This document shows, piece after piece, positions 53,082 through 64,000 of a stretch of 64,000 nucleotides of DNA. The stretch is from Craspedostauros australis (taxonomy: Eukaryota). The position numbers and the translations under genes were made by a program. The stretch spans positions 1 to 64,000 of the forward strand of contig JALAGF010002141.1 of the NCBI GenBank assembly GCA_030167865.1, given 5' to 3'. Position 1 is the first letter of the stretch; each line of letters begins with the position of its first letter. Under the pieces are notes generated by a model. That model did no database searches. It saw nothing but the letters and a program-made list of their open reading frames with translations, and had not been told where the DNA came from.

Positions 53082-56000
53082 ATGGACGGTGGCACAGGCA
53101 GCGAAGAGATGGATATTGGTATGAATAACGCAAATGCACAACCGAAAGCCGATGCGATGGACGTCGACAACACAAAGAATACTGGGGAAGCATCCTTGGG
53201 ACTGCCGGCATCGACATCGAGACTCACGGAACCTGCTGCCAAGCAACCGACGCAATTCCAAATGGGATTGCCGCCAAAGAACAACACAACAGAGCGCAAA
53301 CGCAAGTTGGGTGCATCGTCTGCTGATACAAACACTGAAATCTATAATACCGTGCCCAGCAAGGTTCACTCTGGCAGAAATTGCAATAAGCTTTCCACTT
53401 CTTCCCCATCTGATTTGGAAGAGGATGATCGGCATCACCAAAGGAGGCAACAACTCAATCAGCTCAATTTGCAAAATCTCGACAGCTCCCATCATCAGCA
53501 TCATCAGCAGCAGCAACAAAGCGCACTCAAGAAACCGTTCATGGCCCAAAAGAGCAATTTCAAACCAACCCAAGATGTAAGCCAGACAAAGCGACCCAAA
53601 GGCAATCCATTGGATAATGATCATACTGGCGACGGTGACGGTGATGGCAATAGTAGCGCTGATCATGGCGGTGTTGCTGCCAATGGCCGTGTCGGCGCTG
53701 GCAACTTTCGCAACAATCGGCTTCATGCTCCAAATCCACCAGCTTCTGCAATCACGCCATCCACTCCGTCCGAGCTCGCTCTGTCTTTCACTCCTCCGAC
53801 GCTTAATGGTGGCAACATGAGGCCGGGTGCGGGTGCGTCAGTCCATGCGCAGCGGCAACTTCATCCCACAACGAAAGGGCCACAATCGCAGCTGCATGCA
53901 CATCCGCACCCACACAGCCGGGCGGGGGCCAACCCTCTCGCCACGGAGGCACCATCAACGGAGAGCCAGGCGGAAGGCTGGAGGGTCAAGCTCTATAGAC
54001 TCAATGGGAATGGTTCGTGGGATGACTGCGGCACGGGGCGCATCCACTGCATGTACAAGCAATCGTCGTCCTCATCTTCGTCATTACCAACGACGAAGAA
54101 GGATAAAGATGCCATGTTCGAAAAAGACAAGGAAGATCTCAAGTACATGGGAGACGATGCGCCCATCTACAAGCAGCTGGGCGAACCGACTCTCTGTATG
54201 CAATCAGAATTCTTCCCTCCAACCACACCAGCCATGCCAACCGCAGCAGGTACGCAGTCACCATCATCCGATACCAATGCACCGCCGATACCCTCATCCA
54301 TATCATCACCGGCGGCACCATCCTTACCGTTAACAAGCACAATGGCACAACAGCGTAATTCAGCCAGCGGCGCAAGTTCTCAGGTCACCCTGGGACTTCC
54401 AACCGGTGCATCCACACCCGCACTGCCGGTAGCAACATCCGATCCAACCACATCATCCGATTCAGTGTCAACAACAACAGCGACCGCGACAACGACAACG
54501 ACGACAACCACGACTCCGCCAACACCAACAGGAACACAAACAGCTGATGCAGCAGCAACGCCAACGCCAACGTCAACAACTGAGGCGGACTCAAAGCAGA
54601 ACAGCACAACACGGATTTTGCTGCGAACGAGGATACTGCTGAGGGGGATGTATCAGCGACAAGGGGAAAACATCATCACGTGGCGTGAACCGTACATGAA
54701 CGAAGCCAATCCAGCCTCAAAGGGCGTGGATCTAGCCTTGTCCTTCCAGGAGGTTTCTGGCTGCATGAACATATGGAAGCAGATCAGGAGTGTCCAATTG
54801 AGGGCGGAAGAAATGAGCCGTGCGGATGGGGGCAATCCGCACGCACGACAGAATGGCGTTGGACCCAGCACTGGTAATCCTCCCAACAACAACAGCGACA
54901 CCAACAGCGGGGGCATGCGTGGCGGTATCGTGTTTGGCTCTGGTGCGGGAATCACAAGCGAAATGATAGATCATCGCCAGCATCACCATCAGCAGCAGCA
55001 GCAGCACCAGCCGCAACATCATCATCAGCAACGCAATCCTCCATTGAAGGGGCCTCGCCATGCTCGTGGCGTACCGATCGTCCACGGTGTGCCGAATGTC
55101 ATGAACGGCGCCCCCATCAACGACCATCAGAACAAGCAGGATGTGTGGATGAACATTGGGCCATCGCCGACCACCTCCTCGCCATCGCCACCCGTGCCAC
55201 CTCCTGGATCTGGAGCGCCAGGGACAGCCGGCGATGGTCCGCATCATCAGTTTCCGCCAAACCTCTCCCATCATCAGCAACCCCTTTCACACCAGCAATC
55301 ACTGTCACATCAACATCAACTGCAGCAACAGCACCCGCTGCATATGAATCACCAAAATCCGATGCTCAATCACCCGCATCAAGACGATTTCGAAACTGCG
55401 GTCGGTGGCCTCGTGGGAGGGTACCATGAAGGTCCCATGGAACAGGGTCCGCAATTGCCCAATCCACCATCGCTGGGGAATTTGGAGGAAATCGCCGACA
55501 GGATAGCCGCGGTGCAGGTGCGTTGGAAGCAACAGTACTATTCTCGATCTGGGTCCTGACTTTGTCTGTATGCAGCTGTGACTCGTTGGCATTGCGGTCC
55601 CGCGGCTGGCACTCGTATTGGCGCTGCCTTTGAAATTGGACTAGACATCGTGATGGTGGTACTTGTGCTTCATTTCATTTTCTTGCATCTCTCCGTCTTC
55701 TCGATGAATGAATGAAGGAATGAATGAATCAGCTCATTTCATGTCACCTTGCACAACCCTTGTGCTACGTAGCGGTAGTGACATGCTTCAACTGATTGGA
55801 ATATCTCCTCTCGCTCACTCATCCATCATCGTCATCATCATCTTCTCCTTTGACTGCTCTGCCTATCGCTATTGTCGCGATTCAAACGCACACTCTATAT
55901 TCCGCGGTATGCACTGTTGCGGTTTATCCTTTGCTGTCGTTTTTGTACCCATGCTCATGGAACGAACAGCACATGCAACAAAGGGAGTCGTTCTCCATGT

Positions 56001-58834
56001 ACATCTCGCAGAACGATTGCTCGTACCTGAAGTCGCTGCTCTCGCTCTTCCCATCTGCCGAAGCACGTGAGGATTACAAGTCGTTGGCAACTCTCGCAGC
56101 CTGCGTCAAGACCATACTGCTGCTCAATGATCCGTCCATCATCGATCTCATCGTTAATGACGAATTGATCTTCGAAGAGATCTGCGCCACCATGGAGTAC
56201 GATCCCGACTTGAGAGACAAGGCCAATCACCGTTGGTTCTTGCGGGAGCGCGTGAAGTTCCGCACGGTGGTGCTGATGAAGGATGAAGATTTGATAAGTG
56301 CCATACACAGGTCGTTCCGGGTGAACTTTCTGCGAGATACACTGTTGCGCCCAACGATGGACGAAAACAGTTTGTCGACGCTGTCTTCGTTGCAAACTTT
56401 CACCCATAGCGATGTCGTCAAGGGCGTCACGGTATCACATCAGCAGAACGGGGGTACTGGTTTCTTGCGCGGCAGTTACATTGAGCAGGTGATCAAGGTT
56501 CTGAAACACGAAGTCGACGTGGTGTGCAGGAAGGAATGGCGGGCGTTGGAAGGCCGGGAAACTCGGGCGGCAATCAAAAGGGCGATCGAACGCAGCGAGG
56601 ACGATATTCCTCTCGATACTTCCACGGTCGTGTCTTCGGGCACATACCTTCAGGCCAAGGAAAAGCTGAGCATATGGAAGCAGCATCTCGCACCTCAGGA
56701 TGGATCCTTGCATTCCCGCAAGGCCAGGCGCCGAGGCTGCTTGTCGTTCCTGCGTGAATTGTTCAGCATGGTGCGAACGTCGCTGCAGCAGACAGACAAG
56801 GAAGACTTTTTCCGCGCAATCGTCACGATGAACATCGACGTCACGATGGGGCCAGCGCAGCCAAATCAATGGAGTGATAAGCGGGGGAACGACAATGGCA
56901 CGATCGGCGGCAGCAACCACAGCGCAAGCAGGGACAGCAGGGGTGGGGGTATCGGCGTTGGCGTCGGTGCCCAAGCCAGGATTCCGACCAACTACGATCA
57001 AGATGATGAGGAGGTGCGCGATGAGAACGCGACCAGCCAGATTCGTTTGCTGTCGTTGCTCGCAACAGTGCTGTCCGACCCGAACATCGATGTCACCGAG
57101 AAGGGGGCTGCGCTCGAGATTATCGGCGGTATTGCCACGCATGATCCAAGCCTCGTGCGTGGTCATTGCAACGAGTACTTCCAGTCGTTGGAAACGCACG
57201 GATTGGGCATGAAGGGGAGACCAGCGCGACCGAGACCGAACTGGAACCGGCAGGTCATCTTCCATTGCCGCTCGGATGACCTCCTCGCGGCGTTGCTGTA
57301 TCTGCTGGCCATCGAAACCGATGCTGGCGTCCTCCTGCCAGTCTCCGAGATCCTTCGCACGGTGCTCGACACTGACATGATCGGCGATCACGGACCGTTC
57401 GGCGGTGGCTTCGCAGACGAGGCAGAGGGCATGCCCGCAGGATCCCATCAGTCGCCGTTGGATCATCATCACATGCACCCGCACACGGGGGGAACAACCA
57501 ACATGGATCAGAAGAAGTTCCTGAACATGTTCTACGATCACTACATCGAGTGGCTCGCCGCGCCGTTTCAGCATACCATTCTACGAACGGTGCGACGCGT
57601 TCCAAACCGCGCGCATGCCTCGCCGTCGAGCTCCAAGCTGTACCAGTCGGTGTTGGAGAGCTTCGACAAGGGGAGCATCGCGGAGGAGCCGCTTCTCCGG
57701 TCGATCCAGCCATGTGCCATCAGAAGTTCGTTCGGGGTGGACCTGCTGAGCTTCTGCGTTCGAGTGCATGTGTATCGAATGAAGACGTACCTGCTGCGGT
57801 CGGCGGTTCTATCAAACGTCCTCAAACTTCTGCGGCCGTCCGCTGATGACAAGAGCACGTCTGGCGATCGATGCCTCAAGCTGGCGTCGTTGCGCTTTCT
57901 GAGATCGGTGCTGTTCGTCAAGGACGACTCGTACCACCGTCACATCATCCAACAAAATCTTTTCGAGCCTGTGTTTCAGTCGTTCCGTGCAAACCCAATC
58001 GGCGACAACCTGGTGTCGTCCGCCATCGTGGAGATGTGCGACTTCATCCACAGCGAGAATGTGAAGGTGCTCATCGAGCATATCGTCACGAAGCACCTGT
58101 CGACGAGGGACGATGAGCAGCTGCAGCCGAGCCTCGAGGATGTGTCGAGTCCTTACGTCACGACGTTGACCGTGCTTCGCAAGGCATACGAGATGAACAA
58201 GCAGGGACTTGACGATGATGGTCCTGGCGGAGTCGGCCAGGGGTTCTTTGGTGACACCCATACTCAGTTGTCGAAGCCGCCAACAGGCCAAACATTGTTG
58301 GAGCTGGATGCGAAGGCCCGAGAGGATCAGGTGAGCATGTATCGTCGTCGATCGTTGGTTGTTGTCGTTGGGTGTGTGTATGTCGATTCCTTTCACCCCA
58401 TACGAGCATGGCATCATATTGGACCATCTACGATATCGTTCAGGACTTGCTTTGGTTTGCTTTGTTTTGTTTCGGTTGGTTTGCACGAGTACGAGTACAA
58501 GGACGAGGGCTGTTCCACATTGACTCATTTTTCTCATACGATGTTGCAACATGCACACTGAACACAACTCAACGTTTCCCACCTACAATTGTGCTCTGCA
58601 TAAAAAACGTTCTTCGTCAATCATCCGCAGCGCAAATTCCGAGAGATTGATCATGAGGAGTCTTACTTCGATTCAGACGATGATGACGGTCCGCCACCAT
58701 CGATCGAGCACCCACACACCCAAGGCGGCAGCCTGTCACGATCGCCGTCCTTCCTCTCCGGTTTTCATGCCCAAATGAGCATGGCTGGAACCAGCAGCAG
58801 CGACGACGACGATGATCTTGTCACCGCACCGTGA
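53082..58834 (+). CDS. PPP4R3: Protein phosphatase 4 regulatory subunit 3 (SMEK/Psy2), 3 exons (53082-55517, 55970-58330, 58631-58834)
   Basis: EVH1 motifs WRVKLYRLN..GSWDDCGTG, YQRQGENIITW and DLALSFQEVSGC..IW. SMK-1/ARM region EYDP...HR.FL, IHRSFRVNFLRD, LLSFCV and NLVSSAIVEM. Terminal exon EESYFDSDDDD. Both introns are phase 0. Confidence 0.92.
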
Positions 58835-60091: not shown

Positions 60092-63000
60092 ATGTCCCGC
60101 AGCGACACCTCGAAGTTCCCGTTCGTGGTGGATTATGCGAAGAGCGGCAGGTCCACATGCAACACCGCCAAGCGCCCCATCCCCAAGGGAGCGTTGCGGA
60201 TTGGGGTGATGGTGAAGAGCCCTCACTTCGACGGCTTCCAACCCAACTGGAGCAGGGCCAGCACCTTCTTCGGTTCCGGCAAGAAGATCGGAAAGAAGCC
60301 CGGCTCAACGGATGAGATTGGAGGATTCGACGATCTGCGCCCCAAGGATCAGGCCCAGGTAGAGGAGTACATCGTTAAGTACGCGCCCGATCAGGAACGC
60401 AAGGACCCCAACGAGATCGCCGAAGTCAAGAAGGTGCGCGATCAAGCGGAGCTGGTTTGGAAGCTTCGCGATTGCACCACCAACAAGCCCACCGCAATCG
60501 CCGTCAAGATCGTCAAGACCATCCTCGAAGCCAACGACATCCCTGCATCCAAGGGCATCAGCCCGGTGGATTTGATCCGCATGCTGGCGGAGGCCATCGT
60601 ATTCGGCGTCGCAACGCCAGGCAACAAGGAGGAAGGGTGCTGCGCAAGCCGTCCGCTGCGCTTCTCGACCTACTACTGCAGGTACGTCTGCCAGGCCACT
60701 TTGGAATGGGGACAGTGTCCCTACAGCCAGGCCGTGGATGACACCACCTGCTCTCCCATCGAGATCCCTGAAGAAGTCAAGACGAAGCAAGCCAAGTGGT
60801 ACAAGGCCATCAAGAAGGTGTTGGAGATGAAGGATGATGACGACTCCTTCGCTCCTCAGAAGCGCCTCTTCCTCGCCAAGAAGAATCTGCCCACACCGCC
60901 GCACGTGGAGCAGAAGGACAAGAAGCCCAAGGGCGTCACTGCCACGCCCAAGCAGGTCCGCGTGGGCGCCTCCAAGCTGCATTTGAGCAGAGCCCGCCTC
61001 GACCCTGAATCGGGGCTGGACAGCGGCTACCACGTCCTCGACGAAGCCTACACGATGATGAAGGGCAAGAAGGCCGCAGGAGACTCCGGGCGTCCGGATC
61101 CCAAGGAATCGTTCCCAGTCGAGCTCTACGATGCCATCCTGTGCCGCACGGATCTATCGACGGGAACGAACTCGCAGTACAAGTTGCAGATCCTGGTGCC
61201 AGACGGTCAGGCGAGGCCTGGCCACTGCTACCTGTGGCGCGTGTGGGGTCGCGTTGGAGGCACTGGCGGAGGTGGCAACAAGCTTGAGAAATTCAACACG
61301 CTCAAGCAGGCCAAGCAAGAGTTCTGCGAGCTGTACGAGAAACGCACAGGAAACGAGTGGAAGGACCGTAAATCTTTCGTGAAGCATCCTGGCAAGTTCT
61401 TCCAGCTGGAGATCTCACACGGAGAAGAGGACAAGAAGGCCGGCAGCGCGGATGGCAGCAGCATCGTGATCGGCGATCCCAATTCCAAGCTGCCACGTCG
61501 TCTGCACCCCGTCATTGCTTCCATCTTCGACAAGAACATCGCGGCGCAACAGCTGCTGCGGGTCAACTTCGACGCGTCCAAGATGCCGTTGGGCAACATG
61601 ACCGAAGCGCAGTTGCGCGATGCCTACTCCGTCCTCACGAAGATCGAGAAGATCCTGAATCCGCAGCAAGCAACTGCAGCCGCATCCACAGCAAGTGCAA
61701 ACGCGAGTACAAGCGGAAGCGGAAGCGCAGCCGCTCCGAGCAGCCCCACGTCGGATGCCATGAAGAAGGGCAAGCTGCAGCAGCTGTCAAATCAGTTCTA
61801 CTCCAAGTGCCCCAGCACGGACCCCAAGATGATCGACACCATGTCAGTGCTCAAGGAGAAGGTCGAGATGGTGGACGAGCTGATCAACTTGCAAGCATCC
61901 AACAAAGTGATGAAGGACGACGTCAAGCACGATGACGTGAAGTCGCCGATGGATGAGGCCTACGAGAAGCTCAACACGAAGCTGGCACCCATGGATCCGC
62001 ACGGCAAGGAGTACGCGATGCTGAAGAAGTACGTGGAGAACACGAGGAACGCGACCGCCGAAGGCGTCAGCGGTTGGGGTGGCAACGACTGGGGAAGTCG
62101 CGGCCTGCGCTTGCTGGACGTTTTCGAGGTGGAACGCGAGGGAGAGGCGCCAAGATTCGAATCGTCCAAGGCGCTTGGCAACAGACGGTTGCTCTGGCAC
62201 GGAAGCCGCATCAGTAACTACAGCGGTATCCTCAGCCAAGGATTGCGCATCGCGCCACCGGAGGCACCTGTGAGTGGTTACAGGTTCGGCAAGGGTATCT
62301 ACTTCGCCGATATGCTCGGCAAGAGCGCGAACTATTGCCGCACCAACGGATCGTCCGAGATGCTCGTGATGGCGTGCGACGTCAGTTTGGGCAAGGCATT
62401 CGAGACTCCCCATGATATGTACATGGACAAACCGCAGAAGGGCACCAACTCCACTCACGCATTGTCCGAAATCATCCCAGACCCAGACACCTATGAAGAG
62501 ATCCAAGATGACCCCAAGGAAGACAACACGATGGACGATACCAATATGGTGAAGGTCCCGTTGGGGAAACCCATCAAGTCCTCCCTTGCGTCGCAACCGA
62601 GCTGCGATGTGAGCGAATTCATCGTGTACGACATCGGCCAAGTCAACATTCGGTACCTCTTGCGTCTGACAACGAGCGATGAAACTGTCGCAGCAGACGA
62701 TGCAGAAGCCGAAGACGAGGTGGAGAACGAAGCCGACGCCAAAGCCAAACCCGCCAGTGACGCCAACGACGACAATGGTGACGACGCAAAGCCTGCTGCG
62801 AAGAAATCGCCGCCGAAACCATCAACAAAAGTACCTGCAACCGCAACCGCCACTTCCACCCCCATTGCTGCCAAGGCTGCGCCTGCGCCTTCTCCCAAGC
62901 GGAAGCGTGCACCCAAGAAACCAAAAGCAGCTGCTGCGGCTGCAGCGCCCAAGTCGCCCACTAAAAGCGGCGGCGCCAAGAGCAAAGCGAAGCCCGCAAG

Positions 63001-64000
63001 CAAGCGCGCCAAAATGGCCCACGTGCCTGCAACCGCTTCTGCTCCTGCATCGGCCAAAAGCTCCATGAGCAAGTCTTCCACCACTAAGGCCTCCACCACC
63101 GCCAAGAGCCCCACCGCCAAAAGCTCCAACGCCAAGACCCCCAAGAAGGCAGTGACACCTCCTTCATTCATCGCACTGGAGAAGGAAGACACTTCCGTGC
63201 CATCGCTCTCAGGCGAGAAAGTGATCGAAAGCCTGACATTTGAAGGTGGTCTGCGCATCACGCTTGTCAAGGGTGACGTCGTGGAGTCCAAGACTGATGC
63301 AATTGCTGTATCATGCGATGACAAGCTGCAGCCATTGGGTGCAATTGGTACACGTGTGAAGGCGGCAGCTGGGCCCGACTTTGTGGCCGAGATTGATGCG
63401 CTGGTGCCTCCACCACCTAGTCCAACCGTGGCACCAGTCGTCGTCAGAACCAGCCCTCCCGACACCAAGCTCCCAGCCAACTTCAAGAGGATCTACAGCG
63501 GCCCAACCGCAGACACAATCCGCAATGTCATCATGGATGCTGACGAAGAGTGGGAGGATATGTTCTACCTCGTCGAGCAGACGGAGAAGTTGTCTTCCAA
63601 CGACGAAATCGTTTGCATCGAAGCCGATGGCACCTTCCGCAAGGGCGAGGAGGCGAGGAAGTTGCTGGGAGTCGGACATAAGCGCAACGAACACATCACC
63701 ATGAAGCAAATCCCAACAGGCGCGGAAGTGTACGTCCAAAGCAGCCCGCATCGGCGCATCAAGCCGCGCACGCCAATCCTTTTGGAACAGCTGATGCCCA
63801 TGTCAGATGATGAAGATGACGCTGCTGCTGCTGCTACCACCGCCACTCCTGCTGATGCTAGCACAGCTCCAGCCGTGGCGCCTGCGGTCGCAACCGCATC
63901 TGCGCCTGCATCTGCAGCACCACCGAAAACAACCGCGGCGTCCAAACCAGCAGCTCCCGCCAAGCCACTTGATTTGAAGATGACAGACGTCCACGCACTG
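60092..64000 (+). CDS. PARP1-like poly(ADP-ribose) polymerase with C-terminal basic linker and macrodomain, 3' partial (at least 1303 aa)
   Basis: Own translation; no stop before the window end. zf-PARP-like VDYAKSGRSTC...SPHFDG, PADR1, WGR (61244), regulatory domain KMPLG..LSNQFYS. Catalytic LLWHGS (His 62198), GIYFAD (Tyr 62300) and SEFIVY (Glu 62615). Then a K/A/P linker and macro-like ITLVKGDVVESKTDAIAV. Confidence 0.93.
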   Translation, partial: MSRSDTSKFPFVVDYAKSGRSTCNTAKRPIPKGALRIGVMVKSPHFDGFQPNWSRASTFFGSGKKIGKKPGSTDEIGGFDDLRPKDQAQVEEYIVKYAPDQERKDPNEIAEVKKVRDQAELVWKLRDCTTNKPTAIAVKIVKTILEANDIPASKGISPVDLIRMLAEAIVFGVATPGNKEEGCCASRPLRFSTYYCRYVCQATLEWGQCPYSQAVDDTTCSPIEIPEEVKTKQAKWYKAIKKVLEMKDDDDSFAPQKRLFLAKKNLPTPPHVEQKDKKPKGVTATPKQVRVGASKLHLSRARLDPESGLDSGYHVLDEAYTMMKGKKAAGDSGRPDPKESFPVELYDAILCRTDLSTGTNSQYKLQILVPDGQARPGHCYLWRVWGRVGGTGGGGNKLEKFNTLKQAKQEFCELYEKRTGNEWKDRKSFVKHPGKFFQLEISHGEEDKKAGSADGSSIVIGDPNSKLPRRLHPVIASIFDKNIAAQQLLRVNFDASKMPLGNMTEAQLRDAYSVLTKIEKILNPQQATAAASTASANASTSGSGSAAAPSSPTSDAMKKGKLQQLSNQFYSKCPSTDPKMIDTMSVLKEKVEMVDELINLQASNKVMKDDVKHDDVKSPMDEAYEKLNTKLAPMDPHGKEYAMLKKYVENTRNATAEGVSGWGGNDWGSRGLRLLDVFEVEREGEAPRFESSKALGNRRLLWHGSRISNYSGILSQGLRIAPPEAPVSGYRFGKGIYFADMLGKSANYCRTNGSSEMLVMACDVSLGKAFETPHDMYMDKPQKGTNSTHALSEIIPDPDTYEEIQDDPKEDNTMDDTNMVKVPLGKPIKSSLASQPSCDVSEFIVYDIGQVNIRYLLRLTTSDETVAADDAEAEDEVENEADAKAKPASDANDDNGDDAKPAAKKSPPKPSTKVPATATATSTPIAAKAAPAPSPKRKRAPKKPKAAAAAAAPKSPTKSGGAKSKAKPASKRAKMAHVPATASAPASAKSSMSKSSTTKASTTAKSPTAKSSNAKTPKKAVTPPSFIALEKEDTSVPSLSGEKVIESLTFEGGLRITLVKGDVVESKTDAIAVSCDDKLQPLGAIGTRVKAAAGPDFVAEIDALVPPPPSPTVAPVVVRTSPPDTKLPANFKRIYSGPTADTIRNVIMDADEEWEDMFYLVEQTEKLSSNDEIVCIEADGTFRKGEEARKLLGVGHKRNEHITMKQIPTGAEVYVQSSPHRRIKPRTPILLEQLMPMSDDEDDAAAAATTATPADASTAPAVAPAVATASAPASAAPPKTTAASKPAAPAKPLDLKMTDVHAL

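What the first reader, a model, noticed from the sequence alone, without database searches (positions are those of the whole stretch)
63405..63965. Macrodomain apparently split by an inserted globular domain resembling the C-terminal module of vWA proteins
Seen: after the macro helix (AAAGPDFVAEIDAL) come a Pro-rich spacer and a compact segment, FKRIYSG...IRNVI...MFYLVEQTEKLSSNDEIVCIEADGTFRKGEEARKLLGVG...AEVYVQSSPHRRIKPRTPILLE. An Ala-rich spacer follows, then PLDLKMTDVHAL, which resembles the point where a macro fold resumes. From memory, the pattern FY....E.....EI......G.EAR.LLG...VFVQS.S.NR.L...T..L belongs to an uncharacterised C-terminal domain of bacterial and some eukaryotic vWA-domain proteins. 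Inference: a domain-in-domain insertion that links this module to ADP-ribose signalling.
Basis: partly seen in the sequence, partly recalled or inferred. Interest (0 to 1): 0.7.

Follow-up and report, generated by a model that had tools for sequence, protein, structure and literature searches.

The report
PARP with split macrodomain and insert
A PARP1-like enzyme, probably from a diatom, ends in an ADP-ribose-reader-type domain that is split by an unnamed folded module otherwise found in bacterial and phage proteins, and a related enzyme carries the same module at its opposite end, which suggests the two work together.

The parts
60092..64000 (+). PARP1-like ORF, 1428 aa, open without intron; continues past the window to the stop at contig position 64378
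60131..60373 (+). zf-PARP zinc finger (aa 14-94); only one found
   Evidence: Pfam PF00645 E 6.6e-15
60419..60607 (+). PADR1 N-terminal helical part (aa 110-172), followed by a Cys-rich segment
   Evidence: Pfam PF21728 E 6.7e-4, below curated cut-off
61127..61378 (+). WGR domain (aa 346-429)
   Evidence: PF05406 E 2.1e-14
61484..61963 (+). PARP regulatory domain (aa 465-624)
   Evidence: PF02877 E 2.1e-27
62006..62668 (+). PARP catalytic domain (aa 639-859) with H703, Y737, E842 triad
   Evidence: PF00644 E 3.6e-53; motif positions
62669..63166 (+). Low-complexity linker, acidic then K/A/P-rich, about 160 aa; about 100 aa longer than in the paralog
63218..63403 (+). Macrodomain N-half (aa 1043-1104): strands 1-3, helices 1-2; KGD motif kept; LQPLGAIG where relatives have xSLS/GG-type loops
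63404..63478 (+). Pro-rich spacer, disordered in the model
   Evidence: pLDDT <50 at model residues 77-86
63479..63796 (+). Module X, 106-aa globular domain; family of the C-terminal domain of vWA proteins (C-terminal part of phrog_26613); no Pfam, NCBIfam or PDB family
63797..63964 (+). Acidic then Ala/Pro-rich spacer, disordered in the model
   Evidence: pLDDT <50 at model residues 210-247
63965..64000 (+). Start of macrodomain C-half (aa 1292-1428, continuing to contig 64375); diphosphate loop reads GFDVVGSTI and last strand CIGHARS in place of SIGSGRAGL and CLYDDES of the paralog
   Evidence: (PF01661 E 5e-8)

Best explanation
A clade-1 (PARP1-like) poly(ADP-ribose) polymerase with a C-terminal macroH2A-type macrodomain, into whose loop after helix 2 a self-contained module X was inserted once, before the gene duplicated. 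Shown: domain order, completion of the macro fold around the insert, X as an independent fold, same split in paralog and P0008, intact macro plus N-terminal X in P0026, faster change of the window copy's tail. Inferred mechanism: DNA breaks activate the enzyme through ZnF/WGR; the fused macrodomain binds the enzyme's own ADP-ribose at 1:1 and restrains it or holds it on PAR, as macroH2A1.1 does to PARP1 in trans; X hangs on flexible linkers and binds a partner or anionic ligand through its conserved Y/K/R/Q/S/S/N/R residues, so it works from either position. After duplication the paralog kept reader and X intact; the window copy lost the pocket motifs and some invariant X residues, giving an unrestrained PARP whose tail is kept as a folded scaffold. 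Anatomy about 0.95; single insertion about 0.75; this mechanism about 0.4.
For: Fold completion. X homology; pLDDT 93.6. Coding constraint: window vs paralog insert pN 0.43, pS 0.72, like macro halves (0.33/0.76, 0.38/0.64). Three split copies group together in the X tree (86/65) and the macro tree (SH-aLRT 80) with the same branching; in-macro and diatom N-terminal X form one group at 98/98. Rate test, window-unique vs paralog-unique changes: core 50 vs 43 (p 0.53), macro 37 vs 10 (p 1e-4), X 25 vs 6 (p 9e-4). Pocket motifs kept in paralog, P0008, P0026 and lost in window. macroH2A1.1 inhibits auto-modified PARP1, pocket-dependent, near-equimolar (PMC7300387, passages).
Against: No binding or activity was measured. 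X's ligand is unknown. 0 macro/PARP neighbours in 128 prokaryotic/viral loci; 14 of 60 phage neighbours had a Pfam family, all different, one a SLOG family. The N-terminal placement rests on one unnamed protein from one 4150-nt contig (P0026). Only 4 PARP-macro proteins are in hand; support for one insertion is modest (86/65; 80). P0008 is a fragment, so its PARP core is assumed. pN/pS values are uncorrected and the low-complexity spacers gave similar ratios, so this test alone is weak.
Confidence: 0.45

Rival explanations
1. Neutral passenger: X is a mobile diatom module that landed in a permissive macro loop and is tolerated; it has no function tied to the PARP, and the whole tail of the window copy is decaying.
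For: X occurs on unrelated diatom proteins; flexible spacers decouple it from the macro (pTM 0.62); window tail is rate-accelerated and has changed K42, S90 and G28, conserved in 56, 56 and 48 of 58 copies; no ADP-ribose context in prokaryotes.
Against: X is on the same PARP in two positions; paralog and P0008 X are 58% identical; in own-genome searches X was found only in the two PARPs (lower bounds); frame and fold are kept in the window copy.
Confidence: 0.25
2. X itself reads ADP-ribose, PAR or nucleic acid and adds avidity next to the macrodomain; bacterial and phage vWA-X proteins would act in ADP-ribose conflicts.
For: Conserved polar/basic residues (Y30, K42, R60, Q87, S88, S90, R93); two copies per chain in several diatom proteins; association with PARP in two positions.
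Against: No macro/PARP genes near 128 loci; six annotated Streptomyces plasmid and phage regions show no ADP-ribose enzymes among named genes, most phage neighbours being hypothetical; window X is net acidic, 15 K+R vs 18 D+E.
Confidence: 0.15
3. The macrodomain recruits the enzyme to PAR made by others (positive feedback, as in macroPARPs) and does not inhibit it.
Against: Best sequence matches are macroH2A1.1 (E 4e-27); fusion fixes the 1:1 ratio that favours inhibition in that review.
Confidence: 0.12
4. The insert is an intron, intein or assembly artefact and the protein has an intact macrodomain.
For: 26 frame-preserving GT..AG pairs could remove it; no RNA evidence over the insert was obtained.
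Against: None of the 7 donors reads GTRAG (consensus recalled); the insert encodes a conserved domain in frame in three independent sequences; GC3 0.75 like the core; no intein family in Pfam scans.
Confidence: 0.03

Closest known systems
Clade 1 PARPs (human PARP1; Citarelli 2010 PMC2964712, Perina 2014 PMC4245714)
   Same: zf-PARP, PADR1, WGR, regulatory and catalytic domains in that order; H-Y-E triad
   Different: One zinc finger, no BRCT found; long linker and a macrodomain after the catalytic domain; the passages and section read list no macrodomain for clade 1
macroH2A1.1 macrodomain (PDB 7ny6, 1zr3, 1yd9)
   Same: Closest solved relative by sequence and fold; paralog, P0008 and P0026 keep the D, G, SxGxG and FD/YD motifs
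   Different: Fused to a PARP, no histone fold; split by X in three of four proteins; pocket motifs lost in the window copy (more like non-binding macroH2A1.2/2 in outcome)
macroPARPs PARP9/14/15 (clade 3)
   Same: Macrodomain reader and PARP domain in one chain
   Different: There macrodomains precede a catalytic domain without WGR/regulatory domains; here a single macro follows a clade-1 core
vWA-X proteins of Myxococcota, Cyanobacteria, Planctomycetota, Streptomyces plasmids and large phages (phrog_26613, e.g. Myrna gp18)
   Same: Same about 105-aa domain with FY..E..KE..G..AR.LG..F.QS.S.NR.L pattern
   Different: There it is C-terminal to vWA; the diatom subtype is N-terminal or macro-inserted and forms its own group
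ThiS/MoaD/TGS minimal beta-grasp folds
   Same: About 46 residues (first strand, helix, next strand, last strand) superpose at rmsd 2.0-2.5 A

Membership tests
Clade 1 PARP | WGR + regulatory + catalytic domains | tested here: met
   Pfam
Clade 1 PARP | H-Y-E catalytic triad | tested here: met
   H703, Y737, E842 in HGS, YFAD, EFIVY motifs; motif identity recalled, triad named in PMC2964712
Clade 1 PARP | Placement of catalytic domain in the clade 1 tree | not tested
   No reference PARP set was fetched
Human-type PARP1 ortholog | Two zf-PARP fingers and BRCT | tested here: not met
   One zf-PARP stretch, no BRCT
Macrodomain (macroH2A-like class) | Complete macro fold | tested here: met
Macrodomain (macroH2A-like class) | ADP-ribose pocket motifs (adenine Asp, loop-1 Gly, SIGSG diphosphate loop, FD) | tested here: not met
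   Window keeps Asp and the G224-equivalent Gly but reads GFDVVGSTI and IGHARS; met in paralog, P0008, P0026. G224 from PMC8232725; its placement in the motif is recalled
Macrodomain (macroH2A-like class) | Binding of ADP-ribose | not testable with these tools
   Needs ITC or a crystal structure
macroH2A histone variant | H2A histone fold N-terminal to the macrodomain | tested here: not met
   No histone family in Pfam scan of the whole protein
MacroD-type hydrolase | NAAN...GGGVD motif | tested here: not met
   Present in 4 bacterial rows of A10, absent from all 4 PARP macros; role of the motif recalled
macroPARP (PARP9/14/15) | Macrodomains N-terminal to catalytic domain, no WGR/regulatory domain | tested here: not met
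C-terminal domain of vWA-X proteins (phrog_26613 C-terminus) | Profile match over the domain | tested here: met
   38.4 bits vs 8.1 best shuffle; phrog_26613 E 0.018 window, 5.5e-7 paralog
Beta-grasp (ThiS/MoaD/TGS) | Full beta-grasp topology | tested here: inconclusive
Intein | HINT domain and splice-junction residues | tested here: not met
   No intein family; insert is bounded by low-complexity spacers

The most novel reading that the evidence does not exclude
Diatoms have a self-restraining PARP1, with the macroH2A1.1-type inhibitor/reader fused in cis, served by an undescribed binding domain of bacterial/phage ancestry with no close solved fold. X would be a new reader or adaptor class in ADP-ribose signalling, testable as a 106-aa protein.
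Probability: 0.25. Interest if true: 0.78.

Novelty: new variant of a known kind. Interest (0 to 1): 0.56.

Why it matters
macroH2A1.1 restrains PARP1 in trans by a mechanism that the review read here calls unresolved (PMC7300387). A natural PARP1-macroH2A-type fusion, with an intact version, a split version and a pocket-dead duplicate, is a ready series for testing one-to-one cis inhibition. It also shows that the macro fold tolerates a whole domain in the loop after helix 2 (useful for engineering ADP-ribose sensors), and it gives the first functional handle on a widespread unnamed domain of bacteria, large phages and diatoms.

Full report
Host gene. The finding lies in one open frame from window 60092 to a stop at contig 64378, 378 bases beyond the window (1428 aa). 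Pfam gives zf-PARP, PADR1_N (below cut-off), WGR, PARP_reg, PARP and Macro. The H-Y-E triad is present (H703, Y737, E842). The genome is a 65.9-Mb eukaryote. I infer a diatom because the named proteins with the same X subtype come from Odontella, Seminavis and Pseudictyota; no marker gene was tested.

Related architectures. A paralog on contig C3431 (1286 aa; 69% identical over the PARP core) has the same split with X 37-38% identical. JGI fragment P0008 has it too. P0026 (1335 aa, one unnamed 4150-nt contig) has the same PARP core and an uninterrupted macrodomain (E 4e-27 to 7ny6), with X at residues 9-119. Diatom proteins carry this subtype N-terminally on X-vWA-X and X-(phrog_1735-like)-X chains. 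In a 28-row tree the 3 inserted and 5 N-terminal copies form one group (98/98); the inserted three group at 86/65. The macro tree has the same order with P0026 outside (SH-aLRT 80). One insertion before the duplication is the simplest reading, not proven. Relocation within the gene and two recruitments from other diatom genes cannot be told apart: P0026's X joins the other N-terminal copies at only 82/30. In the own genome X was found only in the two PARPs (lower bounds), among 13 PARP-domain and 5 macro matches.

Coding status. Between paralogs the insert shows position identities 0.50/0.67/0.35 and pN 0.43 vs pS 0.72, like the macro halves, though the spacers give similar uncorrected ratios; GC3 is 0.75, like the core. 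26 frame-preserving GT..AG pairs exist, none with a GTRAG donor. Splicing remains untested.

The window copy is the derived one. Paralog, P0008 and P0026 keep the macroH2A1.1-like SxGxG.AG loop and the [YF]DD motif; the window reads GFDVVGSTI and IGHARS and keeps only the adenine Asp and the G224-equivalent Gly (G224 from PMC8232725 passages, placement recalled). In X it has changed K42, S90 and G28, conserved in 56, 56 and 48 of 58 copies. Relative-rate counts with P0026 as outgroup: core 50 vs 43 (p 0.53), macro 37 vs 10 (p 1e-4), X 25 vs 6 (p 9e-4); two other outgroups for X and one for macro agree. None of the four macros has the MacroD NAAN/GGGVD motif, so a reader is more likely than a hydrolase.

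Mechanism. Established for the families: clade 1 PARPs with H-Y-E make PAR and mostly act in DNA damage response (PMC2964712, passages); the macroH2A1.1 macrodomain binds auto-modified PARP1 and inhibits it, needing an intact pocket and near-equimolar levels (PMC7300387, passages). I give this 0.45. Against the ADP-ribose link for X: 0 macro and 0 PARP hits among 3716 ORFs around 128 loci (80 bacterial, 48 viral); of 60 immediate phage neighbours scanned (60 of 67, near-duplicates dropped) 14 had a Pfam family, all different, one of them a SLOG family; six annotated plasmid and phage regions named no ADP-ribose enzyme.

Literature seen: PMC4245714 (passages and section 3.1.1), PMC2964712, PMC7050489, PMC8232725, PMC7300387 (passages), PMC9503650 (passages and section 3.8). 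Seven searches listed no description of a clade 1 PARP with a C-terminal macrodomain, of a macrodomain split by a folded domain, or of X; figures and supplements were not seen and most subscription papers are not held.

Verdict. A new variant of known parts, with an unnamed domain and a natural intact/split/pocket-dead series. Interest 0.56.

Noticed in passing
L007:4207-8067 (-), G000 contig C3431: Paralogous PARP (1286 aa) with the same split macrodomain and intact pocket motifs; the better experimental subject.
   Followed up: yes
L009:1063-3018 (+), G000 contig C1652: Macrodomain (Pfam E 6e-27) fused to a C-terminal region that looks sirtuin-like by eye (GAGMS, NVE, GAGFNTP motifs, recalled), resembling macrodomain-fused SirTM; Pfam named only the macro.
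   Followed up: partly
G000, loci L204-L216: 13 PARP catalytic-domain matches (12 over cut-off), a large set for a putative diatom; several have in-frame stops or introns.
   Followed up: no
G000, loci L196-L203: At least 9 weak matches to the vWA part of P0012 without X, in open frames of 322-719 aa: an expanded vWA family.
   Followed up: partly
L115:4368-6116 (+): Giant-virus MAG protein with RING finger + vWA, matching the vWA-X query to its C-terminus; L135 has a SWIM/RING neighbour.
   Followed up: no
P0058, P0060, P0063: Acyl-carrier-protein-like domain fused N-terminal to vWA-X.
   Followed up: no
P0010, P0014, P0019: Diatom proteins with X at both ends around a phrog_1735-like middle domain (YfaP-like by recall); the two X copies belong to different subgroups.
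   Followed up: partly
window 62669-63166: Linker with an acidic stretch followed by K/A/P-rich SPK/TPK motifs, like histone H1 tails or the macroH2A linker (recalled); about 100 aa longer than in the paralog; possible DNA-binding or auto-modification region.
   Followed up: no
window 55796-58561 (+): PP4 regulatory subunit 3 (SMEK) gene upstream, Pfam PF04802 E 7e-98.
   Followed up: partly
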